Of a stretch of 64,000 nt of DNA, positions 15,637-51,659 are shown piece after piece. The DNA is from Lytechinus pictus (Eukaryota), in NCBI RefSeq assembly GCF_037042905.1, contig NC_087251.1, forward strand, positions 16,432,001 through 16,496,000. Reading direction: 5' to 3'. Numbering within the stretch: the stretch's first letter is position 1; every line of letters starts with the position of its first letter. The position numbers and the translations under genes were made by a program. The notes under the pieces are model-generated. The model had not been told where the DNA came from and searched no databases. It saw nothing but the letters and a program-made list of their open reading frames with translations.

Positions 15637-16900
15637 CAGAGCTGCCAACCATTACGTTTTTGCCGTAATCATTACGTTTTTTCATTCAAATTACGGCATT
15701 ATGGTTTTTCTTTTCAAATTACGTTTTTTGACAATTTTGATAATGTGTGTACATAATTGTATGTATGTGGAGTGCGTGTTGAGCCCACTGAACTAGAAAT
15801 ACGTATTTCTAGTTCAGTGGTTGAGCCCGAGATGAGCCTGGTATTTGCGCGTGCGTAGTCGCCCGCCGGCCGGTTTTCCAACGCACTTTAATAATTTGAT
15901 AGCGTGCACGTACATATACGTTAGTTGAATATGCGAGCGGCATGCATGGTACGAATCGCGATGTATAGCGACTGGTAAATACGTCTGTAAGGATGATGAC
16001 GTCATCCAAGATGGCAACTTACGATGACAAACGAAAGGATCGAGGATGATTATGTTTTGATCATCATTTGAAAGGAAATAACAGTAACTGCGGTCTAAGG
16101 TACGATATTTCTGAATTTTATATATTTTATCTTAAATTTGCATGTAATTTCTTTCCTATAAAGTGATGTTTTATGTACAAAAAAACGATCCGAAAATCAG
16201 ATTTCAGAATTTAGATCTAACGTTACTGCTAATACGTTGTCTTTACGCACGGGCCAACACTCTTCAGGTGATCGAGCCAACGTTTGTTCTTGCAGCGCAG
16301 AGCGAGGAGTACGATGAATTGGGTAGGGTAATTCCCAAATGTAGTAAGAGAAGAGTCCATTTGTAATGGAGGGGGATTTGGAGGTTTGAGGGAAATTATT
16401 ATTCCATTTGCAAAATTTTACAAAAATACTCATCATATATATTAAAGATTGAATCATCAAAAGATATTTTTCATATACTTTAAAATTAATTGTTGTGATA
16501 AAGAAATGAAATTTTGAGGCTATTTTCTTGAATTGATTAATATCAATTCCCTTCGGATAACGGTACTGTCTGGTTAATTTTCATCAACTCGTAATCGTAT
16601 CAAACACGATGAATTCGGCTTTGAAAAGACCTGGAAAGCTCTTCATTGTCCCTTGAAGTAATAATTCTGGGTGATTTTAACATTTATTGATAGTTTCACA
16701 TGATTTATACTAGAGAGATGTCCTACTGCCTTTGGAATTCATTAAAAAAGTCGGCACTTTAGCATTCAGTTTAGCAGGAATGGGAAGATTTCTTCCCCGG
16801 TTCTGGCGGCCTAGATGTCTGCTCTATAGTGCCGTCACTGCTGGGGATGATTGAGTGTGCGTGCAGTGTGATTGAGGCTGAGCTGTGCACATCGTGAAGT
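15637..16900 (+). mobile_element. Truncated hAT-like transposon end with CpG-rich interior
   Basis: Starts CAGAGCTGCCAACC followed by repeated ATTACG motifs; no matching right end or TSD found; right boundary approximate. Confidence 0.45.
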
Positions 16901-20285: not shown

Positions 20286-22666
20286 CTGCAAGAAAAGAAA
20301 AGAAATACATGAATATAGTGCTACTGCACAGCAAAGAATGATTTCAAGTGATTACACCAACAAGAAATATCAACAAAAAGAGACAGTGATGAAAAAAAAG
20401 TTCATCTTATCATCTATCTGTGCAGCGATGTCACTGCACTATTGCTTGTTAGCAAATTCATGCCATCAGTGTTCTTGTTCACTTTTCACCATGCAGGTAT
20501 AACACTATCTCTCTCACTCTAATTTCATCACTGATTAAACAATCTCCACTTGCACGTTTCAAAGCAATTATTTCCTTCAGCTAATGCAATTCCTAAAGAG
20601 ATAAAATTATGATCCAGGAACATGTCTCTTGGAAGAGATTAATAATGAGTGTTTTCACTTTCCCAATAATTTACAGTACAATGTACATTTATATTCATTG
20701 CACAAAGAGGCAATCAAGTCATCTCAATTTTGTTTCTGCTTTCATCAAAACCAACTTGACATCAGGGTGAACTCCCCCTTTAAGGTAATATTAGCATTAG
20801 CTGCCTATAACAGACAGAGACCTATATGGAACTGGTGCTTCAAGCTCATACCAATTTATGAGTTTATATCCATCTTTAAATCCAATAAATAGACATCCAG
20901 ACAAAAGGGCTACACTTGCAAATCATTCAGGATTCTAAAAATAATGAGAGCTTTCTTTCTGCAATGAAAGAAGACACTATTGAGACTACATTCTAGATGT
21001 CTTTGAGTATTATATTTCTTGCTTAATCACAGTTTCTCTCAGAATATAAAAAAATATGCAAGGCAAGACAGCATGTTTTATAGGAAAAATACAAGCTTAT
21101 GATAAAACAAAACTGAACTTAATAGATACTATACCCGACATTTTCATTGATAATGAGGGTAGAGGTGGTGCTCTTTTTTTTATGGGGGGGGGGCACTAAC
21201 ACTGTTGACTATTTTTTCTACAGTTTTCCAAATTTTGCATTGTTTATCTTATTCATATACTGCATGCTTCTAATAATTATTTTATTTTTTGATGGATCAA
21301 AATAATCTTTGATAAATTCTAGCAAAACAATGTCTTGATGACAAGACTACTACATTGATAACCCATGATTTGGATAAATGGATGAAACTAATCGACAGTA
21401 AACCAGGGAAGGGAGATGCTTTCAATCATTGTGACAGAAAGCAGGCTTCAAATAAACCTGAAGAAATGGCATAACTGGCAATAAATGGCATTAGCCCTGT
21501 TCATATTAATAAGTTCCTCAATATTGCTGTTTTATTATTTTGCAAGAGAGAGAGAGAGAGAGAGAGCAATATACCTGGTCCACCGTCATGTGAATTTTAA
21601 GTTCAGTGTTGAAAGCTTCATGTCTAGTGTTTATTGTTCAGTGATGAAAGCTATTGCTGATATTCAGTTTTCAGTGAAAGTTGGTGTTCATGTGACACCA
21701 ACACTAAACAAAAAACTTAAATTGAAATGAGAATAGTGTTTGAATCATTATTATTCAGTGTTGAGCCAAGAATCCAAGACTATGGTGTCAGCAAATTGGA
21801 CTACAACACCCGAGTGAGAAAGACTGACTATAAATTATCCAGTGCAACAATGATACTGCAGTCTGAAATACTATATGATGGGTGTATCCTTATGAGGACC
21901 AATGAAAGCAGTGAATGATGTAGCTTTTCAACACATCAAACATGTCTGTCACTAAAAAAAGCATAGAATAAAATCTAGAGGGACAAGAATTTCAATGAAA
22001 GTCTCAAAACTACTTCTGTGCATACAAACAAAACAATGTTTTTTCCACCCAGAAAACATCAAACCACAAGGGGCATTTTGATTGATTTCCACCCAAAAGC
22101 ATAAATGCTAACTGTTCTAAAGCTATGAATCAAATATTGTTTCCAGGAATGAGAGAGTAAGAACATACATGTACACTAAAGAGAAACACAGTTCTAGCTC
22201 TGATATTGAAGAAGGTCTATTAAGAACAACCCTGTTTCTAATAACAACTGGAATTGAAAAAAATGTATCATTACAACAATTGAAGTACAATAACAAATCC
22301 CTCATCTTGCTTTCTTTGCTGATATAATTTCCACAACACTTAATTTGTATCATTATTATGTTGGATATTCGTCCATATTTTTTGTCTATACATGTACGTG
22401 TGTTGATTTAAGTATATTTTCATTAGTGTGTTTTATGAATTTCCAAAATGGACAACAAATCAACAAAAGTATGTCCCATCAGGAGCAAATCCAAAGCAAT
22501 ACATTTACATGTATCACCAACAGATATTTTTAATCCCAAGGAACTTGTTAGTAGAATGTACATTGTATGCACATTGATGTTTTTTTATCCTGTATGGCAG
22601 TTACAAACCAATATATACTGTAGGGAAAAGTTAAACCTCTTGCTGAATAAGCCAATGAGAGTTTAA

Positions 22667-23601
22667 GGACGTTCCACAGTTAAAGTGAAATCCATGTCAT
22701 TTTCACCAAACTTTGCACATAGATACTTTAGAACCTTAATATTCGAAATATGCAAAAATTAACATAGGTCCATGTGCTTGATTTTTTGCTATAGCGCTTC
22801 AAAGTTCACCCAAATTGATGTTCTTAAAAATTGCGCATTCAAAAGAATTTGGCATTTTTAGACCGCCCAAGATTACTACAATGAGTTTAAACCTCTATTA
22901 CTCAGTCAAAATACATGAAAAAGTCATCAAATTTCGCAAGAGAGTTAATAATTGTATCGTTAGAATGGAGAATCTATTTATAGTGCTATTTGTTTGCAAT
23001 TTTAAGTTTAACAGCTCTGTCAGTTCTTAAAAAAGGCGTAAACGATAACAAAATCCCAATCTGAAAAATTTAAAATTTCAGTAACAAACTACAAACGTAC
23101 AATAAATGCTGCACTTTATTCAAAATCCATGTCATTTTCACCAAAATTTGCAGAGTTGTAGAGGAAGGTATACCTAAGAGGTACAAACATTGAAAAATAG
23201 GGGTTCATGTGCTTGTTTTTAAACTATCAGCATTTTTATTAGAGCAAATGGGCTTTTTAAAACACCAAAAATGCGCCGAATGCTTTGTATCTATGTGAAG
23301 AAAAAAATCAAAATCACTCTACCATTTATTCAAACTCGGGGTAATATCCGTGATTCTTGGCAGCAATGCAGAGTAAAGTATTTTGAAATTGTATAATTTT
23401 TTTTTCAATGGTCCATGGAATAATTCAATTTTTTAGCTTCATGAAATAACGCATCGGATCTGCAGTTAAAGTGCAGAAGATGAGAAAAATCAGCTCATAC
23501 CCGCAGCTAATTAATCACTTGTTCATCCATTGTGACGTCAGCGCGCAGAGTGTAAACTATGCGCAGATCATAATGCGCACAAACATAACTGTGGAACGTC
23601 C
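22667..23601. mobile_element. Kolobok-like MITE
   Basis: 16-bp perfect TIR GGACGTTCCACAGTTA; TTAA at 22663-22666 and 23602-23605. Confidence 0.9.
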
Positions 23602-26600
23602 TTAATTGGGGATATTTTGTACAGAGGGAGTGGTGAAGAAAGTAGATAAAATAATGAAGCAAGAATGTAATAAAGGCCATGCCATTGGCCCTACATACTA
23701 ATAAATAGTTGATAGAGGAATGGGTCAGTGTTCTTTCTAGAATCTCTATATGAAAATCGTCATGAGAGTAACTGATTTCCTCATAATATCAATAAACAAT
23801 CATTCAATATTTTCTCCTGATAAGCAAAAATAAGCAGACAAATTGTGTGATAGTGCATTAAAACATTCATGAATAGCAAAGATGTGAACACAAATCCACT
23901 CAGTGTATTATATTTCTTATTTTTATAGGTTATATGTTAACCGATTAAATTGCTTATTTATATTTCATTTCTAGGTATAATATTCAATTTCAAATTAAAA
24001 TTATATTTTCTATTTTCTTGATATCAATAAAATATCCATCAATGACTGTTTTTAAAAGAAGATCTGTCAACACAACACATTCATGATTCAATTTTTCTCA
24101 TGCAATTTTTTATGGACAAGGACAAGATTCATAGGCCTACTTCATCAAACAATTATAAATAGATACAATTGAAGCCAAAAGTATACACCCATGGAATTCA
24201 GTGAAATTTGTTCGCTTGCAAAACATTGTAAAATTACTATATCTTCAGAAATATAAATACTACCACAACAAATTTGGTATAAAATGAAAGAGCATATTCA
24301 CATGATTGGGATGACACTGTGATTAAAGTATATTTCAGGTGGAATTTTCTTTGAAAAAAAAGTAATATTTGTACCAAATGTATTCTATTGTTTGTTATTA
24401 TATTCTTAAACATCGTTTTATGGAAATATATAAATGTCAAACCTCTGATTTATATTACATTTTCGATCATGATATGTCACCACTGAACAACAAAAGTGTA
24501 ATCTGAAATGTTTGTGTTGAGAACTGGCTCAAATATAAAATGTTTTTTGTCAAGTTTTCACTTTTAATTTGTCTAAAATATGAAGATTTGGGGGGGGGGA
24601 ATGACACATAAAAATATTTTTCAGCTCCTAATGACAAAACAATCTGATTAAGGGGCATGACAGACTCATTTGTTTGATATCAAATTTGTCATGATAGCAC
24701 AAATATTTTAAAAGATACAGTAAATTTTATGATGTTTGGCAAGTGTCAACTTTTCTTTGAATTTCCTGGGTGTACATGTACATGTATGTAAACTTCTGGC
24801 CTCAACTGTATATTCCATCATAACTTTGGCATGTAGATGTATTTTCATTTCTTAAAAGCATTCAGTGGTTACTGGTAATATTCACAAAATAGTTTTTTTT
24901 TTCTAGTTCATGTACCACTGCTGACATACTATACATGTAATAGTGCTGTTGAACAAACAAAATAAGAGAATTTAAAATCACTTTGAAAATTGTAGCATGT
25001 AATCTTTAATTACACAGGGATACAATGTGTTTCACCTCAGTCTCAGAGTAGAATAATAAAACACAGCTGTCTCTCAAGATACAAACAGAGGCTCGTATTT
25101 GCATGAATTTTTGATGAAGCACGATCCACCTCAAACATGTTGCCAATTGAATGTCTCCACAGGTATGTCACATGCATGGAGGCAGAACATGAGTACCATG
25201 GTTGACATGTAACCTGATTCCCCATACAGGTAAATCATCATCAACTCTCGTTCCTAATGTTGTGTCGTGTCGCATTTACAAGCAATGGAAAGTGACCCAC
25301 ACAGTATTTGGCCCAATGAAGGCTTCATGTCTTGTACAGAATTTGTGAATTTTTAAAGCATGTACTGTATGTCATTAATTTACCATTCAGACAGACTTCA
25401 ATAAAGACATGCTCACAGTACGAATATCAGCGACACATCGCCATCAATATAATATGGATGTCATCAACTAAATAGGAATACAGAAATGTCACCATAATCA
25501 ACATTGTCTGAATGTCACATCGCATCTAACTCATTTCCAGTCACAGCTCATGCTAGACATACACGTAATAGTGCAATAAGCATCATTTCACAATGAATAT
25601 GAGAAGCATGTCATCATTTTCACAATGTAGGCCTACATTTTATGTGATGGATGAAAATCCACATGGAACTGAAGGTTTCAACCCCTGTTAAACCTAAGTT
25701 ACAGTGTACATACTGTTAATGCACACAACAAGGACAGAAAAATAAATTTCGGTATTTACAAGCATCAGTGAAGAGGTTCAATGAGAAAACAATTGATCTT
25801 CTTTATTGGAATCAGATTAATAAAGTTTTAGAAATACAAATTTAAAAACAATAATGAAATAACAAATCACAGGACGATTTAACAACTTATCAAAATAGCA
25901 AAATATAGAGCAATCACATAATCTATAGTACCTTTGTTTACTGTATGTCAAAACAAGGACAATGTTACCATCACTGGTCACATATTATTGATCACATATC
26001 ATTATACATTATGTTCATGTACGCATACTTAGAATGTTCATGTATCAGTGTTTTGAAGAAAGAAGGACAGAGAGGTCTCAGGGCCTCAAGCAGTCAAGGG
26101 ATTATGAAAAGGGCCTAGATACTGAAAGAGAGTGACTGGGAAGGGGAAAGGAGGGGGAGGGGTGTTCAGCATCAGTAGGAAGTGATAATGTGCAAGAGGA
26201 TGCTATCACATCCTTGTAACACCCAATGGCACAGTGATTTACAGACAAGATCTATCCAGGGATATATGATATCAAGTTCAAGAGTTCAAATGACCAACTG
26301 ACCCAACTCAACTGCTTGACTGCACTGAATGCATGCAGCCAAGCTATGAAGGATCAATAATTGACTTGGAGCTGTACTACATCACATGCATGCCTCAATG
26401 AGAAAATACACAGCAGCGAAGGGTAATTTGGCTCAGAAGAGACTGTCCGAAGGAGATTTTCCATAGCTGTATCTCTCAAATATGATCCCTTGCATGAAGC
26501 AATAACATACAAGCCAGGAAAAGAAATAAACTTACTGTACATTTTAAAGGTATATTGTATGATTGGTTGATCTCAGATTAGGGCAATGAATCAATTTTGA

Positions 26601-29600
26601 AATTATTACATTCATTAAATACCTATATTATTGCTCTATTTTATCACGGAAAAGAAACTTGCATAACTTTTCTATTTTCATGATATTGAGGGGTAAAACA
26701 TATATTATGACTTGATCGGTTAACCGTTATAAGGTCGAGCTTTCTTATTGACGCCCTCTCGGGTTAAAAAATAAATTGATATTAGAACACCGTTCGAATC
26801 ATGCATATTCATTACGACTCATGCATATTGATGAGTACGTCATGGCGCATGCGCAGTATCAAGAAATCCCCGTGCAGTACAACAAAGTGCAGTACTGTGT
26901 GTGTGCATAGTAGCTGAGTAGAAAGCAAACAGCGAACGGTGCGTGCAAGCTCAATGATCCGATGCTAGCCGAGCCGGCTAGCGACATGCTTGCGCTCTGC
27001 ATTAGTTTCAGATATAATGCACTATTAGCGATAGCACACACAGGATAAGAATATATTGAGCTGTAGCTCCATGATTGTATCGTACGTGAAAAGGGATTCA
27101 GACACGCTGATTATCTGACGTGAATGACGAAGCAAATGGTTGCCCAATACGGCTTACTTTCGGAATCTTATGTCATGAATCTGAAAGTACTCCAAGACCA
27201 TGGACCTATTACGAATAGGTCCATGCCAAGACTAAAAGAGATACGAGAATCCCAGAGATGGGCAAGGGCCGAGTTCCGAGTTTGATCTTTATTCTGTGGA
27301 TTGTAGCTCTTTTATGCACCTTTTCCCTTCATACATAGCTTGGCGTGCTATATACGGGAACTAGAGCGAGGTGCTAGCGCAGCTTACTGTATACTGACTC
27401 CTTGGCCCTTCCCAAAGGAAAGGGGGAGGGGGGAGAGAGAAGAAAGAAAGAAGTGGATTGGTGAAAGAGAATCAGGAGAGCCATCATAAATACAACATAC
27501 CCTGATTTAATATCTTTCCTAAATGTTTCAGTCAGTTTCAGATTATTTGGCTCCACTCGCAAAGTACAGAGGAGAAATTGGAAAAAAAAGTTAAAACAAA
27601 AGTATTTAAAACTCTGAACAGACGGCCACCACCATTCTGTCTACAGGCACAGCCAAGCATGAAGAAAGGGAAAGGGCGAAGAGAAAAACGATTACTTTCA
27701 GGGCGGGTTCTACGATATAAAACAGGGTTTATTTCATACGGGGTTAAATATAGGCCTATAGTAAAACAACGAAGATTCAACCCCAATGCAGGGTTAAATA
27801 TAGGCCTATAGTAAAACATAACGAAGATGCAAACCCAATGCAACACTAGACTACTCTTCGTTTGTTTAGATTGAACTCGCGAGGTCAAAAGGTGAGCTGA
27901 GAAACCTGTTGATGCGAAGTACGTACGTGTAGTCTACATTGTGTAGACCGTGATAGCACGCATCAAGTTGCAAATTTCGAACAAGCAGAGTAGAGGCGTC
28001 ATGAGCCAAAAAAAAATGAGGGGGCAGACATGACCGTACCGGCACCCCCACGCGCACACATAACCAACACACACACGCCCTCCACTGATTCACTTACCCC
28101 CAGTGATTCACCTAACCCACTGATTCACTTTCCCCGAAAAAAAAAAGTTGTTTCGTGTGACTATTCAGGGGTGTGTGTATGCGTGTTATGGGGATGTAGT
28201 GTGTTGTGTTTGGTAGTCGTATCGTACAAAATACCAACAGTCCAGGAGGTGGACTAGCTAGCGATATGCTTGCGCTCTGCATGCACGTACGTCTACTTTA
28301 GACATGATCCACTATTAGCGACAGCACACACTGGACAAGCATATTATATGGAGCTATATAGCTCCATGATTGTATTGTACGTGAATAAGGATTCAGACAC
28401 TTGGATTATCGAACGTGAATGACGAAGCAAAGGATTGCCCAATACGGCTTACTTTCGGAATATAATGTCATGAATCTGAAAGTACTCCAAGACTAAAAGA
28501 GATACGAGAATCCCAAAGAAGGGCAAGGGCCTAGTTTGATTTGACGGCCACCTCGCTCTTTGCGCTCGCATCAATATTGTTAGGTAGATGACAATCAGAG
28601 ATATCTATGATGACAATCCTGTTCATGATAACCAAAAGTGCTTAGAATGTCAGAATTTTAGTTCAGAATATCAATCACTTTTTAAGCCCAAGTGATTGAT
28701 ATTCTGACCTAAAATTTTGACATTCTAAGCACATGTGGTAATCATGAACAGGAATGTCATCTAATTTTAACTAAACAATATTGAAGCGCGTATAAAAAGG
28801 GCGAGATGAAAAATTGTCATATGTATATATATAGACGGCCACCCCCATTCTGTCTAGGGCCGAGTATGAAGAAAGGGAAGGGCGAAGAGAAAAACGATTA
28901 TTTTCAGGGCGGGATACAAAATAGTAAAACATAGAAGGAAAATAAAAGTTGATGGGACCATGGAGGACACACAGTATTGACATGAAAGTAGGATTATTCT
29001 TCGTTGTTTAGACTGAACTTGCGAGGTCAAAAGGTGAGCTGAGAAACCTGTTGATGCGAAGTATGTAGCGTAGTCTACATCGTGTAGACCATGACAGTGT
29101 GTGTATCCGACCATTGTCAAGTTGCAAATTTAGAATACAGTGTTATTTGGTCAATGGGGGTCAATCTTTACAAGCAGAGCAGAGGCGTCATGAGCCAAAG
29201 CAAAAAAATTAGGGGGGGGGGTAGACGTAAGGGGCAAGATTTCTCGGAAAACTCTTATTCTTGCAGCCACACAAGAAAGCTTGTAGCTAGATGTGGAGTA
29301 ATGAGAAGTTGAGTATATTCAATATGGTCTATGGTAGAACCGTTGCGCTCTAGGTATGCAGAGGGGTGAATTTCGGAGCCGACCCCGGGGGCCGACCGGC
29401 ATGTTTTACAACAGAACTTTACAAGTCATGCCGTTTGAAACAGGGCAACGAAGTACGTGAAAGAAGACTAAGCAAACTTGGAGAAGCAACGTCCGAGGGG
29501 ATAGTAATTTACGTCTGCTTTGAAACGTGTATCAATAAGGATTTCCAGAGAATGGATCGCAGAGTATTTCTCCAGTATGGGGAGGGTGGGGGTAGCCTAT

Positions 29601-29682
29601 AGGCCTAATCAATCCATCAGTGGATGGATGGATGGATGACTGAAAGAATGAATAGATGGATGAATAGGCATATATATGAATG

Positions 29683-30461
29683 CGTATCCGGACATCTACC
29701 CCCTGGACATCCACCCCCCGGACATCCACCAACCGGACATCCACCCCCCGGACATCCACCCCCTTAGGACATCTACCCCCTAGGACAAGTACCCCCTAGG
29801 ACATTTACCCCCCGGACATTTACCCCCCGGACAAGTACCCCCCGGACATCTACCCCCCGGACATCTACCCCCGGACATCTACCCCCCGGACATCTACCCC
29901 CCGGACATCTACCCCCCGGACATCTACCCCCCGGACATCTACCCCCCGGACATCTACCCCCCAGACATCTACCCCCCGGACATCTACCCCCGGACATCTA
30001 ACCCCCGGACAAGTACCCCCCGGACATCTACCCCCCGGACATCTACCCCCGGACATCTACCCCCCGGACAATAACCCCCCGGACATCTACCCCCCGGACA
30101 TCTACCCCCCGGACATCTACCCCCCGGACATCTACCCCCCGGACATTTACCCCCCCGGACATCTACCCCCCGGACATTTACCCCCCCGGACATCTACCCC
30201 CCGGACATTTACCCCCCCCCCCCCCCAGACAGGCTACCCCCGGGCATCTACTCACGGATATTTTGGATACGGGGGGTAAATGTCCAAGGGGTAGATGTCC
30301 GGGGGGTAAATGTCCGGGTGGTAGATGTCCGGGGGGTAGATGTCCTAGGGGGTACTTGTCCTAGGGGGTACTTGTCCTAAGGGGGTGGATGTCCGGGGGG
30401 TGGATGTCCGGGTGGTAGATGTCCGGGGGGTGGATGTCCAGGGGGTAGATGTCCTAGAATC
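29683..30461. mobile_element. Foldback element with 14-15 bp minisatellite arms (GGACATCTACCCCCC)n, Mutator/Foldback-like
   Basis: Forward array then inverted array; 9-bp TSD ATATGAATG at 29674-29682 and 30462-30470. Confidence 0.9.
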
Positions 30462-32587
30462 ATATGAATGGATGGACAAAGACAAATGGATACCAATGAC
30501 GAATAATAGATAGGGGCGCCCCATGGGAGCTGTTGTTGAATGGGCTACCCCTTATTAAATAAACGATAAACAATTAAAAATAGATGGAAAGATGAACTTT
30601 TATTGCAACAAATGAGAGGAAGATAGGCCTCCGGGATACACGCATACAGTGTGTGCACGAGCATGGACCTATTCGTAATAGGTCCATGGCACGAGCAGTT
30701 CAACTGTTGAAAAAATGTGAATGACTGTGGTGCGTGGCGACGTGAGCAGGACAAAGACATCACTCACATCTTGATTGGCATAACGTAGACTTATTTAGCA
30801 ATGAAAGTGGAACCGGGAATTGGGACTCCCATTTTCCTGCTATAAATATAGGAAAAACGAATGATAACTGTTGTTTTATAGCCGAGGAAATGTATTCTTC
30901 ATATTGGGATTGGGACCAAGGAGATCCCGGCGTGTCAAAATTTCACAACTCATGGGGAAAATAATATAATAATCATTTTTTATGATTGAAAAAAAAATGT
31001 GCTCAGTTCACACTGTCACGATTTTTTTTTTGGTGGGGTTACCTGCAGAAAATAATTTGACAAAGCAAAAGAAAAACATCGTTGGTCATTCCATACATTT
31101 CTCAAATTTGACACCTATCAGAATTCCAGGGGGTGCTGCCCATGGAAAATAATACATGCCGCATCCCCAGCTCCCCCCCCCCCCCCCCCCCCCGCTTCCA
31201 AGAGGCATATAATCGAGGAATAATTAATCGTATCAGCAAGTATCAGATCAGTCAAGGCGATCGTATTGATCGTAGAAAGTGTTGGAATATGGTTCAACTA
31301 TTTTGGAGATCAGTTATGAAAGGCCAATCGTGCATGGTGTTCGTGACGGATTGCACTATTGTAGGAATAAGAATATTTTGGGGCGGGAAAGTCGCCTACT
31401 TCCAAGCGGTGATGACTTTCGGGGAAAAAAAGAAATTTGTGTTTGAAATTTTTGGGCAAGCCCATTCTGGCGAGGTTCAATGGGTATACGCCTATTCTGA
31501 TGTATTTAATTTATGGTGATGTGATGCAAATATGTTGCCGATAAAAATATAATATTTTGCCTTTATGTGTGTTTTACAACTCACAGGGGGGGGGGGAGGG
31601 GTCAAGGAGAATACAGTAATAGCTCTGAATACTGACTGAGAGACACTCCGATCTGCAAAAGTGAAGGCAAAGCTGTCATGGGGCAAGCAAACAAGTAATA
31701 CTTTCTTGAATAGGCATACCATAATAAAGTTTGTGAGAATAATATTGAAATAAAGAGAAAAATAACATTGAGAATGCGAACATAAGGAATACACACAACC
31801 TAAGGTTAGGAATTGTATAAACAGCGAAAAATACAGAAAGATGTTATGAACATGCTTTCACTATTCATGAATGTATAATGCAATGATATAAAGGGAAAAT
31901 GTTTTAAGTTGAATTTAATTTTAACCAGTGGCGTAAATAATGAACATAACAAATGAAGGGGCCAGATATACATATAGGGCACAAATCTTGATTTTTTTTG
32001 TTGTAATCTATGATAGATTTTGACATGATATTCAGATAATAGTTTCCCTTATCTCTTTCCTTTTTTTTCTTGGCCGTGGCAAATTTGGGAATCCATACAG
32101 CCCCAAGCCTTATTTTGAACGCCACTGATTTCAACTGAATATCATCAGAAAAATATTTACAAGGTAGTCAAGTGGCAGCCGACGCAGCGTGTAAAAACAG
32201 TATGAATTTCATTGCATGATAATAATAAAATGATAAATAATGTCATGTGTGGTTAGCGGAAACGAGGATAGGACGTTTTGTAATTCGCTATGCAGTAAAA
32301 TAATGAGAATGACTGAAACGATATATATTCAAAATATAAATTTCATGAGAGAGAAACGATTCAAACAATAACAGAGTATAATATTATGTTGCGTTCAAAT
32401 TCCCTTTTGATCGTTCTTTTGATTCCCTTTCAACAATCTATTTCTTTCTTCCTTTCTTCTCTCTCCCCCTTCCCTTTATTGGGGCGGCCGAGCTAAGGAT
32501 GGAGGGGGTATCGGATATAAGGAAGCAGTTTAGGTGTTATGGCACATGACAAGTTCAATTCAGTGGCCTAGTACTAGTAGGTCCATT

Positions 32588-32890
32588 GGTAAATTGCCAA
32601 TTCGTCAACTGCCAACTCATCCATTCACCACATGGTCTACATTCATTTAGTCCATGCAATGCCAATCCGTCCATCAACATTTCATCGAACAACCATTTGG
32701 TCCAGTTAGTCCAGTATCCAATTCATTTTCATTCATTTTGCACAATAACACGTCCAATAACCAAATTGTATATGGACTAAATGACTATTGGATCAGATGG
32801 TTATTAGACGGAATGCTGTGGATAATGAACGAACTGATGGTAGACCAAATAATGATAGTAGACGAGTTGGCATCAGACGAAATGGAAGTA
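32588..32890. mobile_element. Foldback repeat, copy 2
   Basis: Shares GGTAAATTGCCAA...CCACATGGTCTA...GTAGACGAGTTGG with 4041-4430. Confidence 0.7.
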
Positions 32891-33399
32891 AACCGATCCG
32901 ATCAGTGGACTAGCGCCTAGTATCACGCCGGTATAGATAAGGAGGTACAATGTTGGAAACGATGCCCAACGGACATGCCCGTATCCAGGATCCATGATTG
33001 AGCCCGACTATTTTGGCGCCCCTGTGAACTTTTCGGAAAATGGCACCCCGACCCGCCCAGCACGGCTATCATAGGTGCCTTAAATGCAGTTTGAATTATC
33101 GTATTTCATAATCACGTGAAAAAGGCATCGAAGACCACTTTTTAATGTGTTCATGAAAAAAACCATCCATGAATATGTTTTAACCACCTTTTGAAAAAAA
33201 TAAATGCGACCAGAAAGCACAGAATTTTAAACATTTTTGGGTTTCAATTTAGTTCAACTTCTCATCAGAGTGGTAGACCATACTAAAATTATGTGCGGGA
33301 GCTGTAATTTCTTAACCGGGGGCGGATCCAGCTTTCGCCAATAGGGGAGGGGATATTTTCATCTCTTTTCCGATCGAACATTCTGAGTTTTATTGCAAC

Positions 33400-34875
33400 C
33401 GTGAACATGATGGGTATATGTATTATCTAAACAATATTGATGCGAGCGAAAAGAGCGATATGAAAATTGTTCATATTCTTACCTAGAATTTGGAAAAATC
33501 TATGAGCACTTTTGGTAATCAAGAACAGGGTGGGTATCTATCAACATTTTATGCGATCGCGAAGTGGAAGCTGACAATTTTTGAATTTCCAACCCAACAC
33601 TGGACATTATAAGTACTTTTCACATGTGTTTTATAATCATGAACAGGATGGGTATCTAATTAAATAATTAATGCGAGCGCGAAGCGCGAGTTGAAAATTT
33701 TTGATTTTCTGACATAAAATTTGGACATTCTAAGCACTATTGGGTAATCATGAACAGGATGGGTATCTAACAAATCATTTAATACGAGCGCGAGGCGCGA
33801 GCTTAATTTTTTTGATATTCCAACACAAAACTGGACATTCTAATTTGTAATCATGGAAAGGATGGGTATCTATTTAAACAATTGTTTGTGCGAGCGCGAG
33901 GCGCGAGCTTAAAAGTGATTGATATTCTGAACTAAAATTTTGACATTGACTAAGCACTTTTGGTAATCATGAACAGGATTGTCATCTAACTAAACAATAT
34001 TGATGCGAGCGCAAAGAGCGAGATGAAAATTTTTCATATTCTTACCTAAAATTTGGATAAATCTATGAGCACTTTTGGTAATCAAGAACAGGGTGGGTAT
34101 CTGTCAACATTTTATGCGATCGCGAAGTGCGAGCTGACAATTTTTGAATTTCCAACCCAACACTGGACATGATAAGCACTTTTTATAACCATGAACAGGA
34201 TAGGTATCTAGCTAAATAATTAATGCGAGCGCGAAGCGTGCGTTAAATTTTTTTGATATTCTGACCTAAAATTTGGACATTCTAAGCATTATTGGGTAAT
34301 CATGAAAAGGATGGGTATCTAACAAATCATTTAATGCGAGCGTGAGGCGCGAGCGTAAAATTTTTGGTATTCCGACCCAAAACTGGAAATTCTAAGCATA
34401 TTTTATAGCCATGGAAAGGATGGGTATCTATTTAAACAATTGTGCGAGCGCGGAGCGCGAGCTTAAAAAGTTATTGATATTCTGGCCTATAATTTTGACA
34501 TTGACTAAGCACTTTTGGTAATCATGAACAGGATTGTCATCTAACTAAACAATATTGATGCGAGCGCAAAGAGCGAGATGAAAATTTGTCATATTCTTAC
34601 CGAATATTTGGACATTCGAGTAAGCATTTTCGATTATCATGAACAAGATGAGCACTAACAAAACAGTTTATGCGAGCGTGAAGCGCAAGCTGATTTTTTT
34701 TTATATTTCGATCCAAAGTCGGACATTCTAAGCACTTATCTAACCATGAACAGGATCGTCACCTTACTAAACAATTAATGCGAGAACGTAGAGTAGGATG
34801 ATTTTTTTTGTATTCTGATCTAAAATTATAGGCACTTTTGGTAATCATGAACAGGATGAGTATTTGATGCGAGCA
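33400..34875 (+). repeat. Tandem array of ~110-120 bp units (core GCGAGCGCGAAGCGCGAGC, CATGAACAGGAT)
   Basis: About 12-13 diverged units; related units at 28550-28820, 36500-36850 and 63720-64000. Confidence 0.9.
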
Positions 34876-34884
34876 AACATGAAT

Positions 34885-35640
34885 TTGGCGCCCACCCCCC
34901 TCCCTTGGTTAATTGAACCTGAATTTGGCGCACCGGGACAAACATAAAATAGGCGCCCTCGTGTGGTGAACATCCATTAGGCACCCCCTAGGTTGAACAT
35001 CAATTCGGCACCCCCCTATGTCAAACATCGATTCGGCAACCCTATGAAAAAAATCGATTCGGCGCCCCAGCCCCTAGGTTGAACATCAATTCGGCGCCCC
35101 CTCGGTGCCCCTATGTCGAATTTCAATGCAGCCCCCTCTTATGTCGAACATCTATACGGCGCCCTGAGGTAAAACATTAATTCGCCCCCCCCCCCCTCCA
35201 CCTAGGTTGAACATCAATTTGCCACCCCCTATGTTGAACATCAATTCGGTGCCCCCCTATGTCAAACATCTATTCGGCAACACTATGGAAAATATCGATT
35301 CGGCGCCCCAGCCCCTAGTTTGAACATCAATTCGGCGCCCCCTCGGTGCCCCTATGCCGAACTTCAATGCAGCTCCTCCTATGTGGAACATCTATACGGC
35401 GCCCCGAGGTAAAACATTAATTCGCCTCCCCTCCCCCCCACCTAGGCTGAACATCAATTGGCACCCCCTAGGTCGAACATCAATTCGGCGCCTCCCTAAT
35501 TCGGACATCAAGTCGATGCCCCCAATGTCGAACATCAATTCGGCTCCCCTATCTATGTTGGACTTAAATTCGGCGCCCCTATAGGTCGATTATCAATTGG
35601 GCACCCCCCTCCCTAGGGCGAACATCAATTCGGCGCTCCC
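34885..35640 (+). repeat. ~28-35 bp minisatellite (AACATCAATTCGGCGCCCCC)
   Basis: Many diverged units with a ~240 bp block repeated (about 34990-35230 and 35230-35470). Confidence 0.85.
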
Positions 35641-38600
35641 CTTTCCCTCTTTTGTTTTCCTCCTCTCTTTCTTTCCCCCTTTTCTCTTTCTATTGTTCTT
35701 TCCCTCATTTTTTCTCCCCTTTTCTCCCTATTTTTGGCGCCCCTTTTTCGCCTACCCGGGGGGGGGGCGTGCCCCGAGGGCCCTCGAATACGCGCATGGT
35801 GGAGCTACGGATATAGAGAAATAAGGACAAAGATGTAATGCAAATATAAGAACTCTTGAAATATTTTACATTTTCTAGGCAAACAAGAATCCAAAGCGTA
35901 TAAATAATGCGCGGCTGAATAGACCTCCGTTTGCATCCTGTTTGATATGCTCGCGTTTAAATAAAATTTCCTGCAAGTTCCATTGCAGGCTAAATAAAGG
36001 GCAGAAGTAAAAGTTTTTTCTTTGAGAGGGGGGAATGACGATAAATAAAAATACCAGCAAGTGCGATGGGTGATAATCAGGGGCGGCGGAACGTATTTTC
36101 ATTTGGGGGGCAAAAGAGGGCATTAATATGTGTTTTTTATGCAATTGAAATTTTCACCATGAGATTATCATCTGCGTTAAGTAGTTGTGCGTTTTATACT
36201 AATTAAGTTGAGCAAAGCCTTTTTGAAGTCTTTTCTGATTGATTAAATATGTAATCAGGCTTTATTTTTCCGGGAGCGAGCGTAGCAAGCAAGCGGTTGG
36301 AAACATTTTCAAATCTGAAGTTGTGAAACTCGCTTTTTGGTCAATTATTACCGCGCAAATTATTGTTAAAAGAGCATCCTTGCGAGATGTTGTAAGCGCA
36401 AATCGCGGGCTCAAAATTTTGGACATTGCATGTACTAATAAGACCTGAAAATCAAGCATTCCGAGCAATTGTTTTTGTTGTCATGAAAAAGATGTGTATG
36501 TAACTGAATAATGGACGCGAGTGTGATATTCCAACCTGAAAATCTAAGCACTTTTTTAAACCAATAAATAATAATTGATGCGAGCGCGAGCCGAAAATTT
36601 GTGATATTTCAACCTGATGGACATTCTAAGTTTTGAATCCAAGAATAAACAATAATTGATGCAAGCGGAAAGCGCGAGCTGAAAATTTGTGATATTCAAA
36701 CTTGAAAATTGAACATTGTAAGCAGAAGTTGTAACCAAAACACTTGCACCCCTCTCCCAAAAAAAATCCCAGTAGGGAAAAAATGGAAAGTGCCCTTCTT
36801 TCAAAATGATGTGAGTGCGAAGCGCGAGCCAAAATTTTTGTGATTTTCTAACCTAAAATGTATTGTTTGACTTCAAAAAAGGTATTTTATTTTGAAAAGG
36901 GGCACACATCATTTGAAAGAAGGGCACTTTCCATTTTGAAAAAAAAAGATTTTTTTTCCTACTGGGATTTTTTTTTTTGGGGGGTGCAAGTGCTCTCTGC
37001 CCCCCCCCCCCTCCCCCCCCCCCCCCCCGGTGCTAATATGGCCTTGGGTTAAAATTTTTAATGTAAGTTGAAACTGGTATTAACAAAACATGTTGGTTTG
37101 ACTGCATCAAATTTTGATAACGATGGTTTTCTTTAAAATATATATTTTTTACCATTTCGATCCATTACATGTTTGCATTTATTTTGTTATTGTCCGTTGA
37201 CATGCCCAGCGCTTAGAAGTCGTGCCAAAACGTGATTTTGCATAGAGCACATTCGCTGAACCATCATCGGAACTTCGGAATAACAAATAAATGGAAGACC
37301 CCTTCCCCAAATAATTCCGCCTAGCTGTATGTCCTCGATATATCTCTCCATGATACGTACGCAATTTTATTCGCCAAGCCCAGAGGACCAAGGAGGAGTG
37401 GGGTGAAGGGGGAGGCACCTAGGATACGTCATCATCAATTTCACTGAGAAAACCGTACTAAAGTTTTGGTCACAAAGTTGGACTAAGTCAAACGTGATAC
37501 TTGTTTAGTATATACTACCATAACAAGTTGAAAAGAAAAATACAAATAGAAACTTTCGGGGGGGGGGGGTTAATCGATGTTACATAAACATCAATTGCTT
37601 ATAATATACAGGCCTGACGTACCGGTATCATAGGCGGATCCAGGAGGCCAACGGGGCGCCCCCACCCCCGGTGCATAATAGGGGGAAAGAAAGGGAAACA
37701 AAAGCAGAGGGTGGGGGGAGAAGAAAAAATATAAGGAGGAAGAATGAATAAAATGAGGTGAGGGTAATTCAGACTTGGGGGGGGGGAACCATGTCACTGC
37801 ATAAAACAATTAGCCCGCGCTTCGTGTTCGCATTGCCTCAGGTTCGATGGAATATCTATTTATCAATACCTATTGATTTATTCATTCATTCAGTCATATT
37901 TAAAAAGGTTCACAAGATCAGAGTTGTAATTACTGTTTTTTTTTTCATCTTGGTCCTTGTATAATAAAACATAGTAAAATAGCGATTACAATAAAAAGGT
38001 ATTATTCATATCAAATTAAAGAAATATCAGCTAATCGATATAAACAAAAACAGGCCTTAGTAAAACAAACAAGGGAACTACCATATACTAATTCAAATGC
38101 TTGAGCGCAGTTAGCCCAGCTAAAGCCGGGGTATCAGCATGGCCCGCTGGGAGAACAGTTTACGGAACTGAAGTCGCTATACCCGGTGCACCATAGGCCC
38201 TACGTACCGTTATGATCAGAGGCAGATTTAGGATTTTTCAAAGGGGGGGGGGGGCACATTTTCCCGAGGAAAATTTGACAAGCAAAAAAAAATGATTATA
38301 TCGATAGATTTTTACATAAGAAATATTGATTGTGCCTCTGAAGGGGGGGGGGGGGGCGGGGGCACAGCCGGCACGTGCTGCATGGATCCGTCAATTTTCA
38401 GGACACAATACACGATTTCCGAAAATTTTACCTCGCGCTCGCATTTTTTATAGGGCTTATGAGTAACTGTTACGACTATATAGATACAAAAAAAAATAGC
38501 TTTGAGCTGCGGATCGATCGGGGAAAATATTTTTCAACCCCCCTCCCTCTTTATTAGTGAAAGCTAGCTGGATCCGCCCCTGGATATTGTAAAAAAAAAC

Positions 38601-41600
38601 ACTAGGCCACGCGGTATTTGTCCAATTTAATTGATAAATACGTTGAGGCAGTATATTGACGAATTCAGTGGTGGAGAGCTATAGGACACACAAAGCAAAT
38701 AACGAAATTGGCGGCCAAGCTAGTTCAATACAAAATGATTTCTAATTTTTCCTTTTAAAAAAATGTAGCATAGGCCTATTATTCAAACAATTAAGAAATT
38801 ACAACGTACTACATGTGATAATAATGAACACATCAAAATACAGAACCTGAAGAAAATGATGACAATTCAGTGAATCGGAAACAAAACAAAAATACATATA
38901 AAAAACTAGAAAAAATATAATTAATAAGAATATAGCCCTCTCTCTCCCTTGTACCTTTCTCCCTCCCTCCCTCCCTCCCTCCATACCCTGGAGAAATAGA
39001 GAAACAATACAAATCAACGAAGCAAAGATGAAAGCAAGGAAAAAGCCGTCAGACTTTGTTTTCAATGTACACGCTTTCTACGAAATGCAATAGAAACCGG
39101 GAAAGAAACCCGTGCATTCACGGTGTACAGACTCCGTACCCGCCCATGCGTCTGTACTAGTCTGCAGGCTACGTCTGTACCGTGCATCGGCATTTGATTG
39201 AGACTCGCGCAGAGGCGAGAGCTAGAGATATGAATATTCATGAGCAGGTATTGATGTCATTTGGTCTCAAGGTGGCGCTCTTCATTTTTTATGTTAGTTC
39301 GAAAAATAAATCAAAAAAAGCTCACTCGGCAAATCTTCTCATCTTTATATATTTTTTTGAGAATAAAAACAGTTCTTTCTGGCCAATGCAATACATTGTA
39401 TGGACTCAGAACTTGTTTATGAATATCGTGGAAAGCAAAGAGTGAAATTTAAAAGAAAGTTTTGAAATAAACCAATGACACAATTTACCTTTAAGAAGTG
39501 GCGATTTCATTTATGATTCCCATTTTAGATACAGATATATTGTCCCCCTTTTCCATTCTATTTGTTGTCTTACACACAGTAATATGCTTTATGTGATTGT
39601 ACATGTATGCAAATTTATTGCACAAGACCTGTAATCCCCTCTATCCGTCCCCACATATCGATTAAATGTATTCCTGTAAGGAATGTTCGGCATTGAAACC
39701 GACAAGGATTTTTTTTGGGGGGATGGGGTACATTACTCCGATACAATACTATTGTTTTCCTTTAATTTCTGTAAGGTCACCTCTTTATTATTTTCTTATT
39801 CTTTTGTTTTTGTGAAGTTTTTTTTACTTTTGAACAGTTTCTAATAATTTTCAATTACTTGGAAATATTGCGTTTGTATGTGATTAAAAATACTAATAAA
39901 ACACATAATTAAAAAAAAAGCAATAACATACAAAATGAATAGGGCCTACCATTTGAAAAAAATATATAAATATCTAATTTTAATTTTCAGGTACATGTAA
40001 CTCTGGAAATGAGATTCATGAACAAAGTGCTATTTTCACCCTGGGACATGCACTAAGAATATTTGCAGGGTTTTTTAAGAAGAAAGTTTAGCACACAAAA
40101 AAAATTCTGCTGTTGATTATGCTAATGAAAATGTCTACCAGTATTATCAAAGCTTTCATGATTGGTGACACTTCAAGGAAGGTATCATTCTTCTTCAGAA
40201 ATTTGATGCATTTAAAGCTCAGCTACATGTAACTGAAATTTTAAATGGAACATATTGTTATTCCTTGATGGATTTTTGTTAAACTTTCACCTCTATGTTT
40301 CTCTACTTTTCTGCATTTACAAAAACCAAGATTATCAGGATGAAATTCCCTTTTACCCTTCGAACCAGGAAAGCCGGGAAACTGGCTTCACCATGACCGC
40401 GCATATACCCTAAAAGCCAGAATAGCGGCTTCAAGTCATGATGTGACTCAAAAAGCAAGGGTTTTAGATGGCAGGTGACCTTTTAAAAATGACATCATGT
40501 TGGAGATATTAAGTCAATAACTTCAGTTTATAATTTCATCAATACTGGTTTTCATTTGTAAGGTTTTAGCATAAAATATGACCAAAATATACTACCCTAC
40601 CAAGGAGGCTTGTGCGATAATACACGGCGAGTAGTACACGGACTATGCATAAGCTAATAATGAATTTCACCTCCGTCAAAGCAGTAATTTTGAGACAAAA
40701 TTTGAGACTATTGTTATTACGGGAAGCTACAGAACATCAGCGGGGCCAGGCCTGGTACCAGCGGAGTAAGGTGCTGCTGGCATGGCTGGACTCGAATCAT
40801 GAGACTAAAAGGTTATTTCTTTCCAATGTCATGTATTTCTTCATTTTGCCGATAAGCTTGATATCTGCAATAATTCAGGGTGAGGGTCAAGACCGTCCCA
40901 AGTAATTCAGGGTTCAAAGGATTATTAAGGGCCCAACATGTACATAAACGAGCACTTCATATACATGTAGATGAATAACACAAAAGTTGCCTCAAAGTGC
41001 CATGTATCCATTTAAAGCTTTGAAAAAATTATTTGAAAATGGTATTCTGCTGCTATCACTATATGCAACTAGTAGTACATTTTCTTTAAAAAGAACCATT
41101 CCATGTATGTTGTCATGGTTACTACTCTATTCATCTCCATCAGTGCCTTCTTATGAAATTACTGTTCTGGCAATTCAAGGTCATATAATACTCTTGCATC
41201 ACTGGAAGTCATAATGGAGAAAATATATGCATTTTCAAGAAAATTTATCAAAACTAGCGCTGACATATCTTTTCAAAGGTATTGACAGTTTTTTCTTTGT
41301 ATAATATTGATTGATGACACAATACCAGCTAAAATACAAAGGAAGATGAGACAATTGCTAAAGAAAGTAAAGCTATGGCAATCCAAAAAAATAATCAATG
41401 GCTTCAAGTAATATCAAGCATAATGGTTGATCATTTTTTACAAATGTAAATTTCATATACGTTTGTTACAATGCAGGCAAAAAATGTTTTTTTTTATTTA
41501 TTTTCCAGGGCTCTTGTGCACATTTCGGGGGCAAAATCGCCCCAATCCCCCGTGTAATTTCTTCCCTGTTACAATGATCCTAATTCAAATGATTACCAGT

Positions 41601-41995
41601 TTCACAAAGTATGCTTATTATCTAAATTTTTAAAATTCTAAAATTTAAGAATGTCAAATTCTGAGTTTGACTCTAATTCAAACTGCCATTTTGATATCTT
41701 CAACTGCAGTAGTTTTTTAGAAAGGATATCAGTTCATGAATCATGCCTTTGCTACACTGTTTGAATGCACACTAACACATGCTACACATCCATACTGTGC
41801 CACAATAATGGCATACCCTGTAAAACAGAAATTCTTAAAGCTGTTTCCTTCCTAGAATAAACCTTAAAATTAGTTTCATTTTTTAAACATGATTATCTCT
41901 TAATCTTGTTTTGAAACCTTGTGCACAAAACACACACTTTGTGAAACAACTCTAATAAAAATATTGGAGTTCATTGTATCCCCTCCTTTACAGTG

Positions 41996-42183
41996 CAGTC
42001 TGCAGGCGCAGACCTTTGGTTTTCGCAATTCGCATTTAATGCAGAGTCTGAAGTAGTGAGAATAGATTCACTATGTACTGTGGCTGGCTGTTATTTGACA
42101 CAGACAAAGCCTTTGGCATCTAGTCTTTACTTCAGACCTGTTATTGCTTAAAGTGTCAAATGTGATTCTGTGCTTGCAGACTA
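41996..42183. mobile_element. Small decayed TIR element with (T/C)AGTCTGCA termini
   Basis: CAGTCTGCAGGCGCAGA ... TCTGTGCTTGCAGACTA; inner inverted pair GTCTGAAGTA / TACTTCAGAC. Confidence 0.55.
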
Positions 42184-43335
42184 TTCAAAATGCCCGTCTA
42201 GATCTTCATCCCCTCCATATAAGTATTATACCATGTAATACATGTAAGTCAAAGCTCTTTATAATTTAGACAGGTAATAATTTGAACAATTAAAGTACTA
42301 TTCAGAACTTCCAAGGAATAAGATGTGGGAACTACGTATGTGAACTTATGGGAATTCAGTTCTCATATTTGAATTTTGAACTAAACATGTCGTGCATACA
42401 TGTACAAACTTGGAAAATTTTCTCTTTATTTTCTTTTTCTTTTTAATTTTTAAAGTACCAAGGTATATTTTTTTCTGACAAAACACCGGGAACTTTTCCT
42501 GATCGGGGAAGTGTGAAAGTACCTGGTAAGGAGAGGGAGATGCAGCTGAAATGAGACACCGTCAGTCGCTCATAAAATATTCACAACCAGGAGCACTACA
42601 AATTGGCAACCTCATCACTCATGCTTCATTCCAACACTTTCCTTTTGATTTCCATACCAATTACAACATGTACGAGGCGGAATAGAAACATGACTTCACT
42701 TTTTATGACGTTAAACATCAAGTCTAGTCTGGTATGACCTCAAACTAAATGATCACAGCTTCTTGTTTTTAACTAGTGAGTCACAAAAAAGATAACAATT
42801 TTTGTTTCTCTCTAAACGGAATAGTACAGTAAATGAAACGAGGCAAGAACAATCAGAATCTACAATCTACCAAAGTATCGTCACAAATCTCAGCTCTGAT
42901 ATGGCACCTAAGAACGGGTCACCAGTCATGCAATAACTGTACAGTCATATAACATACAAGTTTACAAAGCTTTTGAGCAGCTTTATGAAACACCATCCAG
43001 CTCTAATTAAATTGCATAAAAAATACTAATAGATACACTGTAGCTCTTTTGTATTTTACAATAAGCAGATTATTCTGAAAATTTTTAAACTGTACGTCGA
43101 AACTTCTCTTTATATAAATGCAGAATGCTCCTTGCAGTTGCACGATGGCTTCAACTGATTTTATAATATGGATCAATTTCATTTGGTGACTTTCATTTTC
43201 ACACCTTTTTCACATCAGTTTACAGCACTGCTAAGCAACATCACGCTGTTTGACCCGAAACAGGAAAGAGATAAATGCATTCAAAACAGTTTATGTAAAT
43301 TGTGCAGAATTGTAAAGAAAAGTACATGTAGAAAA

Positions 43336-44688: not shown

Positions 44689-44786
44689 AAAACATAACAT
44701 GTCCATCGAGTTGTTCGAACACACTCAAACATCATGACAAAGAAACAAATCCATTATCATATACTACATGTACCTTGTAACATTAT

Positions 44787-46633: not shown

Positions 46634-47090
46634 TGTTGCTAAGCTCCGTCGCATCATATCTCAAAGAGGTTCATTATTCTTTTTCTCTTTGATTCTAAAT
46701 TGCACTTGAGGCTGTAATCCTAGCAGACACACATTAAAGACCAATGATTACACAAGTATCAATCCATTAGCATTCACACTTCCCCAAAAAATATTGAAGA
46801 CCTTTTTTAATCTGGTAAAAATATTGCATGAATCCACGGCAGAATGCACAATTTTTTTCCGGGGGGGTAGCAAGACGCATACAAATTACTGAAGAAACTA
46901 TGCAAAAGTGAGGGAGCGAAGTGTCTGAGCTTGTCATAGGGAACATTTTGCAAAATTCATTAAAGTGAAAAGGAAAAAATTATTGCACATGTTTGGTGAG
47001 TTTTTTGAAAAATTTCAGTTAATTCCATTTTTTTTTTGGGGGGGGGTTATTACAGCTATGATTGTATCTTAATTTAAAACAAAATAATAT

Positions 47091-51524: not shown

Positions 51525-51659
51525 CTGACGAGGCTCTATCCCTAATTGTGGAACGCCAAAAAGGGTAGCAGCAACTCCCATCTTTTAGCGCCTTTTGGTC
51601 TGATGCGGTTGACTTCCCGGTTGGGAGACGGACGCTCTACTAACTGAGCCACACACCGG
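51525..51659 (-). mobile_element. Partial tRNA-derived SINE
   Basis: Minus strand GTGTGGCTCAGTTAGTAGAGCG (A box), B box missing, then SINE-like body. Confidence 0.55.

What the first reader, a model, noticed from the sequence alone, without database searches (positions are those of the whole stretch)
27192..27232. 27-bp palindrome with 7-bp TSD and an empty-site paralogue: probable P-type excision scar
Seen: CCAAGAC-CATGGACCTATTACGAATAGGTCCATG-CCAAGAC. The duplicated copy of this region near 28480-28500 reads GTACTCCAAGACTAAAAG with neither the insert nor the duplication, strong evidence for an insertion. Known: P-superfamily transposons have CA..TG ends and 7-8 bp TSDs, and Drosophila P transposase cuts with a long stagger that leaves TIR remnants at the donor site. 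Inference: this is two joined TIR stubs left by excision, or a minimal mobile unit.
Basis: partly seen in the sequence, partly recalled or inferred. Interest (0 to 1): 0.72.

Follow-up and report, generated by a model that had tools for sequence, protein, structure and literature searches.

The report
P-type transposon excision scars, sea urchin
The same 27-base hairpin sits twice, each time between its own 7-base duplication, in an intron of a sea-urchin gene; it is likely the scar left when a cut-and-paste jumping gene related to the fruit-fly P element hopped out, and such scars would record how the enzyme cuts, but the parent element was not found.

Summary
Observation confirmed and extended. 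The unit at 27199-27225 has 12-bp perfect arms around ACG, flanked by a 7-bp duplication. The paralogous segment is empty (28487-28493), and public contigs skip exactly these 34 bases in 3 of 4 runs laid. All three are intronic in a Lytechinus-type WDR26 gene. None of 100 simulated windows gave a hairpin with such a duplication. The form matches published fly P-element excision junctions (two end stubs, both duplications kept), and 7-bp duplications are typical of 1360/Galileo. Best reading (about 0.6): excision scars of a P-superfamily element, joined the same way twice. Not shown: a longer element with these ends, or its transposase; no genome was held. The identity of the two copies keeps a tiny mobile unit alive (about 0.15). 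This scan noted the same class before elsewhere in this genome (e1-7810740; its genome-wide count is unchecked here). A known process in a new lineage: moderate interest.

The parts
27192..27198 (+). Left copy of the 7-bp target-site duplication (CCAAGAC), copy 1
27199..27225 (+). 27-bp unit, copy 1: 12-bp arm + ACG + 12-bp arm, CA..TG ends; likely two joined transposon end stubs
   Evidence: sequence shown; hairpin z = -8.3; origin inferred
27226..27232 (+). Right copy of the 7-bp duplication, copy 1
28487..28493 (+). Empty site (single CCAAGAC) in the paralogous segment 28257-28536
30655..30661 (+). Left copy of the 7-bp duplication (GCACGAG), copy 2
30662..30688 (-). 27-bp unit, copy 2: exact reverse complement of copy 1, at an unrelated site
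30689..30695 (+). Right copy of the 7-bp duplication, copy 2
15778..15785 (+). Left copy of the 8-bp duplication (GTTGAGCC), second family
15786..15819 (.). 34-bp perfect palindrome (17+17), CA..TG ends; likely the scar of a second P-like family; no empty site seen
   Evidence: empty-site search in the window negative
15820..15827 (+). Right copy of the 8-bp duplication, second family
26548..39490 (.). Candidate host: 12.9-kb TTAA-flanked, Kolobok-like element (21-bp imperfect inverted ends, 18 of 21 match) holding both 27-bp copies
   Evidence: laid contigs begin near 26556 in all four runs; only the left end was examined in other runs
20295..54433 (-). Second intron (about 34 kb) of a WDR26-like gene, which holds both 27-bp copies; bounds approximate, from tblastn

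Best explanation
The 27-bp unit is a real insertion present twice at unrelated 7-bp duplications, and it is likely what was left when a longer P-superfamily (1360/Galileo-like) transposon excised. Shown: insertion into a once-empty site, 7-bp duplication, CA..TG ends, two identical copies in opposite orientation, intronic position. Inferred: (1) a longer element with these ends inserted and made the 7-bp duplication; (2) its transposase later cut one strand at the very end and the other strand 12 or more bases inside, leaving a single-stranded stub of the element's end on each flank; (3) end joining through a short microhomology fused the stubs and kept both duplications; (4) the same microhomology was used at both sites, so the scars are identical. 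Two geometries give exactly 27 bp. In one, the stubs are identical and 17 nt long, and the 3' AA of one pairs with the TT at positions 11-12 of the other. In the other, a 12-bp inverted end is followed by ACG repeated directly inside both ends, so 15-nt stubs anneal over 3 nt. The two sites are 3.4 kb apart, which would fit one element hopping locally (speculative). The scar has no function that I could detect.
For: Empty paralogue with a clean 27+7 gap. Contigs skip exactly 34 bases in runs X1, X9 and X10, two studies; the X9 and X10 contigs run past the end of the in-window paralogy, so they are of the copy-1 type. Second copy with a different 7-bp duplication. All three perfect hairpin-plus-duplication units in the window have CA..TG ends. 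Fly P cuts 17 nt inside its ends (PMC7776569, passages). Fly excision junctions are stub + stub with both 8-bp duplications kept; one stub-keeping junction made up 14 of 68 sequenced, and a blunt 17+17 join was recovered (PMC2895639, parts of Tables 1-3). The 34-bp unit here has that 17+17, 8-bp form. 1360 and Galileo make 7-bp duplications (PMC3698922; PMC4168063). Fly P has separate internal transposase binding sites 9 and 21 bp inside a 31-bp end, for which 27 bp leaves no room. Stub geometries.
Against: No longer element with these ends is in the window: the 12-mer occurs exactly only in the two units, and no long CA..TG element with a 7-bp duplication was found. No transposase family was hit in 198 of 214 window reading frames scanned; the 16 left out lie in simple or tandem repeats. 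No loose end at the unit's borders was among the 24 rows shown (330 not shown). Both copies are identical to the base, which a mobile unit predicts outright, whereas fly scars are heterogeneous (and those tables come from Rad51-null flies). The asymmetric centre needs an extra assumption. The empty targets are not self-complementary (2 of 19, 2 of 19, 4 of 20 positions), although P, 1360 and Galileo target motifs are described as palindromic; three sites say little. The empty contigs may be other copies of a host repeat, not alleles of this locus.
Confidence: 0.62

Rival explanations
1. The 27-bp hairpin is itself the mobile unit, a two-ends-only miniature element cut out and inserted by a transposase supplied in trans.
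For: Two identical copies, both orientations, each with its own 7-bp duplication; no parent in the window or among the loose ends shown.
Against: It is a third of the size of MADE1, the 80-bp paired-end mini-element of Hsmar1 (PMC9062482, one passage). It leaves no room for internal binding sites or for two 17-nt cuts as in fly P. A second family of another length that matches the fly blunt-join geometry sits in the same gene.
Confidence: 0.16
2. The unit is the remnant of a longer inverted-repeat element that lost its interior without transposase cutting (stem deletion or abortive gap repair), or the scar of a non-P family that happens to have CA..TG ends and 7-bp duplications.
For: The window is rich in foldback and inverted-repeat elements. 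Microhomology-mediated miniaturisation has been described for a Tc1/mariner element (PMC3814204, search listing only). No transposase was seen, so the family is not tied down.
Against: Independent internal deletions would rarely stop at the same base twice. Stubs of 12-17 bp with both duplications intact are what the fly P cut gives. Hairpin-forming families such as hAT leave no end stubs (recalled).
Confidence: 0.15
3. Only one copy is a true scar; the other arose when a staggered break nearby was repaired by copying the hairpin as a templated insertion.
For: The two copies are only 3.4 kb apart and identical.
Against: It needs the copy to start and stop exactly at the unit's ends and to produce again exactly 7 bp of duplication; no flank is shared between the sites.
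Confidence: 0.05
4. Chance, an assembly error, or a locally templated repair product unrelated to transposons.
For: None.
Against: No hit in any of 100 simulations; the same 27 bases recur at an unrelated site; the arms are not copied from either flank.
Confidence: 0.02

Closest known systems
Drosophila P-element excision junctions (end-joined 17-nt stubs; PMC2895639 parts of Tables 1-3; mechanism in PMC7776569, passages)
   Same: Two inverted end stubs joined head to head, both target duplications kept, about 27-34 bp long, ends CATG..CATG in the 27-mer; one junction type recurs; the 34-bp unit has the 17+17, 8-bp geometry.
   Different: Natural and intronic in a sea urchin, not induced in a laboratory fly; 7-bp rather than 8-bp duplication for the 27-mer; perfect arm only 12 bp with an asymmetric 3-nt centre; parent and transposase not in hand.
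1360 (Hoppel/ProtoP) and Galileo, the 7-bp branches of the P superfamily (PMC3698922, PMC4168063, passages)
   Same: 7-bp duplication (Galileo 7, rarely 8); copies reduced to little more than two inverted ends are common for Galileo.
   Different: Those copies keep far longer ends; the word 'footprint' occurs in neither paper's main text; the targets here show no palindromic motif.
Zebrafish Pdre2/THAP9 elements (PMC10983969, passages)
   Same: A deuterostome P-like element with short (13-bp) inverted ends beginning CAT, close to the 12-bp arm here.
   Different: 8-bp duplication, subterminal repeats; the passages read give no cut depth for this enzyme.
MADE1, the 80-bp paired-end mini-element of Hsmar1 (PMC9062482, one passage)
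   Same: A short palindrome made only of two transposon ends.
   Different: Three times longer, Tc1/mariner family; its TA duplication and own mobility are recalled, not read.

Membership tests
P superfamily (parent element) | 7- or 8-bp target-site duplication | tested here: met
   7 bp at both 27-bp copies, 8 bp at the 34-bp unit; family sizes from PMC3698922
P superfamily (parent element) | 5'-CA ... TG-3' termini | tested here: met
   3 of 3 units. Fly P begins CATG and Pdre2 begins CATA. The rule for the whole superfamily is recalled, not read.
P superfamily (parent element) | THAP + RNase H (P/THAP9-type) transposase in an autonomous element with these ends | not testable with these tools
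   No genome held; no transposase hit in 198 of 214 window frames
P superfamily (parent element) | A longer element sharing the termini, with internal binding sites or subterminal repeats | tested here: inconclusive
   None in 64 kb; none among the loose ends shown; collection scans could only find short forms
P superfamily (parent element) | Palindromic target-site motif | tested here: inconclusive
   Empty targets are not self-complementary (2/19, 2/19, 4/20). The motif is a statistical consensus and weak for P and 1360, so three sites cannot test it.
P-type excision footprint | Two inverted stubs of at most about 17 nt each, with both duplications retained | tested here: met
   27 bp and 34 bp with intact duplications against the fly tables
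P-type excision footprint | The site once held the full element (long allele at the same duplication) | tested here: inconclusive
   Only the empty state was seen in public contigs; 32 pieces shown and 1379 not, 24 loose ends shown and 330 not
Two-ends-only miniature element (MADE1-like MITE) | Many homogeneous copies, each with its own duplication | tested here: inconclusive
   2 identical copies in 64 kb; genome-wide count not testable
Two-ends-only miniature element (MADE1-like MITE) | Long enough to carry two transposase-binding ends | not testable with these tools
   27 bp against 80 bp for MADE1 and against the 31-bp end plus internal site of fly P; needs a mobility assay
Kolobok (candidate host element 26548-39490) | TTAA duplication, RR..YY termini, inverted ends | tested here: met
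   TTAA on both sides, AG..CT ends, 18 of 21 match; none in 50 simulations; definition from PMC9587614
Kolobok (candidate host element 26548-39490) | Kolobok transposase, or an empty site for the whole element | tested here: inconclusive
   No transposase hit in the frames scanned; empty site not examined

The most novel reading that the evidence does not exclude
The 27-bp hairpin is a mobile element in its own right: two fused transposon end stubs that a P-type transposase can still cut out and re-insert with a new 7-bp duplication. It would be about a third of the size of MADE1 and would show that an excision scar can become a transposon.
Probability: 0.16. Interest if true: 0.8.

Novelty: new member of a known kind. 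Interest (0 to 1): 0.42.

Why it matters
The long staggered cut has been measured for the fly P transposase; in the passages read I saw no cut depth for any other member of the superfamily. If these units are scars, each scar paired with its parent's ends gives that enzyme's cut depth and the microhomology used in germline repair, from genome sequence alone, in a deuterostome. The 34-bp unit hints that 17 nt is conserved. Scars also count past hops that repeat annotation misses because they are under 40 bp. If instead the unit moves on its own, the lower size limit for a cut-and-paste element drops sharply. No effect on the host gene is indicated: all three units are intronic.

Tried and rejected
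Whole-genome search: not possible, no genome held. Collection scans for the two arms with a 0-30-base gap: 0 matches in viral contigs (for the 34-bp family), 0 in prokaryote genomes, 1 in metagenomes. That hit, L001, has no duplication and its inverted repeat runs 25 further bases out to the contig end; rejected as a foldback that holds the 12-mer by chance. These collections hold little animal DNA, so the blanks mean little. The 1-mismatch hit at 22763 lies inside a TTAA-flanked element (22667-23601) and is not an end; the 11 hits at 2 mismatches equal chance (mean 6.9). The two 3-mismatch hits to the 34-bp arm near 21600 are not element ends. No empty-site paralogue for copy 2 or the 34-bp unit in the window. 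In run X3 the depth bin holding the unit is higher than its neighbours (880 against 96 and 297) but within the run's overall scatter, and X3 shows no joint; not used. Two other joints in X9 (skips 33; five letters between) read as divergent empty sites. Whether any run carries the filled site could not be read from the cut tables. The shuffle control had a filter that dropped the candidate host element; rerun. An earlier count said 199 frames were scanned; the right count is 198 of 214. Look-ups of earlier findings by sequence and in relatives were blank.

Full report
Observation. The coordinates are right. 27192-27232 is a 7-bp word (CCAAGAC), a 27-bp unit and the same 7-bp word. The unit has perfect 12-bp arms around ACG, so it has an orientation. 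It folds as a hairpin (z = -8.3, 0 of 200 shuffles), which is expected of any such palindrome and is no sign of function. The segment 26977-27275 is duplicated at 28257-28536, and the duplicate has the 7-bp word once and no insert, a clean 34-bp gap. A scan for perfect arms of 10 bp or more between 7-bp direct repeats gave 2 hits in the window and none in any of 100 simulated windows.

The second hit is the same 27 bases, reverse-complemented, at 30662-30688, between a different duplication (GCACGAG) and with unrelated flanks. A third unit of another sequence lies at 15786-15819: 34 bp, a perfect 17+17 palindrome with an 8-bp duplication. A relaxed scan limited to CA..TG ends found these 3 and no older, degenerate ones, against 1 hit in total over 30 simulations. 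With any ends allowed it gave 52 rows, of which only these 3 have both a perfect arm and a perfect duplication; most of the rest are a GTA microsatellite.

Setting. The window holds a WDR26-like gene on the minus strand. One exon is 100% identical over 62% of the query to a protein named WDR26-like of Lytechinus variegatus, the best of 19 hits, so this is a Lytechinus-type sea urchin. Mapping that protein puts both 27-bp copies in the 34-kb intron between the exons at 54434-54541 and 20229-20294, and the 34-bp unit between the exons at 18358-18498 and 15095-15190. Both 27-bp copies lie inside a candidate 12.9-kb TTAA-flanked element, 26548-39490 (18 of 21 terminal bases match; none in 50 simulations), which fits the Kolobok end rule as stated in PMC9587614 (passages). 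No transposase family was hit in 198 of the 214 frames of 62 or more residues; the 16 not scanned lie in simple or tandem repeats.

Other DNA. No genome was held, so the obvious genome-wide test could not be run. Twelve public runs hold part of 26000-31500; I laid 4 of them, all contigs, on 26500-28800. The joint 27191->27226, skipping 34 with 7 letters fitting either side, stands in one contig each of X1, X9 and X10 (two studies; X1 may be the window's own source) and not in X3. The X9 and X10 contigs extend beyond 27275, where the in-window paralogy ends, so they are not the 28-kb copy. They differ from the window by several percent and are about three times deeper than the window-type contigs where both are listed, so they are probably other copies of the host repeat rather than alleles. 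Either way the ancestral state is empty, and the unit is a late, private addition. The tables were cut (32 pieces shown, 1379 not; 24 loose ends shown, 330 not). No loose end at the unit's borders was shown, and I cannot say whether a filled or long allele is in these runs. Collection scans for short forms gave nothing real.

Mechanism. Fly P transposase cuts at the 3' end and 17 bases inside on the other strand (PMC7776569, passages). After excision, 17-nt single-stranded tails stay on the donor flanks, and sequenced junctions are stub + stub between both 8-bp duplications. One short-microhomology junction made up 14 of 68 in Rad51-null flies, and a blunt 17+17 join was recovered once (PMC2895639, passages with parts of Tables 1-3). 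The 34-bp unit has that blunt form, though 18- or 19-nt stubs joined through a central CG or ACGT fit as well. The 27-bp unit fits in two ways: identical 17-nt stubs joined off-centre through 2 nt, or a 12-bp inverted end with ACG repeated inside both ends and 15-nt stubs annealed over 3 nt. Each predicts different bases 13-17 in the parent. The 7-bp duplication points to the 1360/Galileo side of the superfamily (PMC3698922 and PMC4168063, passages), and a deuterostome P-like element with 13-bp ends beginning CAT is known (PMC10983969, passages). Insertion, duplication, ends and recurrence are shown. The long parent, the cut depth and the joining route are inferred.

Against. No parent or transposase was seen. 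Two base-identical copies are what a mobile unit predicts and only what a dominant junction allows. The targets lack the palindromic character described for P-family motifs, on three sites. The main argument against self-mobility is size: fly P uses internal binding sites behind a 31-bp end, and the paired-end mini-element MADE1 is 80 bp (PMC9062482, one passage). This is an argument by analogy. I put the scar reading at 0.62, self-mobility at 0.16, a remnant of another family or route at 0.15, and the rest at 0.07.

Known or new. It works like a P-element excision footprint. Membership of the parent in the P superfamily is met on duplication size and termini and untested on the transposase. 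Searches of the held library for natural P-type footprints or sea-urchin P families listed no paper whose title or abstract start describes them. The library lacks most subscription journals and Repbase, and I opened no supplements, so they may be catalogued there. This scan noted the same class 15 Mb away in this genome (e1-7810740). I had recorded the same reading before seeing it; its claim of thousands of copies is unchecked here and is not counted as support. Verdict: real, probably a known kind of scar in a new lineage, with a clear test outstanding; interest 0.42.

Noticed in passing
window 15778-15827: A second micro-palindrome family: 34 bp, perfect 17+17, CA..TG ends, 8-bp duplication; the same geometry as a blunt join of fly P stubs. 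Both families have ACG at the centre.
   Followed up: partly
window 26548-39490: Candidate 12.9-kb TTAA-flanked Kolobok-like element without a detected transposase; GC 41.8% inside against 35.5% outside; its left arm behaves as a multi-copy repeat in public runs; packed with nested repeats.
   Followed up: partly
whole window; gap 24940-39599: TACATGTA occurs 49 times (3-13 in each of 10 simulations), yet 0 of 49 lie inside the 12.9-kb candidate element, where about 10 are expected by length. This suggests the element arrived after, or is shielded from, that other scar-forming process.
   Followed up: partly
window 55455-57014: 1560-bp element with an 8-bp duplication and perfect inverted ends beginning CAGGG, hAT-like by recall.
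   Followed up: no
window 2335-2677: 343-bp element with a 9-bp duplication and inverted ends, Mutator-like by recall.
   Followed up: no
window 19190-19773 and 22667-23601: Two more TTAA-flanked elements with purine-purine ends (584 and 935 bp), Kolobok-like miniature elements.
   Followed up: no
window 29688-30454: Foldback made of inverted arrays of a 15-bp unit (35 and 12 copies) between the two 27-bp copies.
   Followed up: no
window 15778, 27192, 30655: All three micro-elements sit in flanks at the 85th-88th percentile of GC and the 75th-100th percentile of CpG for the window; three sites only.
   Followed up: no
window 28609-28761: A 72-bp-arm inverted repeat (92%) built from the 111-bp satellite unit of 33.4-34.9 kb.
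   Followed up: no
L001:1-98: A perfect foldback at the end of a metagenome contig, probably an amplification chimera, that holds the 12-bp arm by chance.
   Followed up: yes
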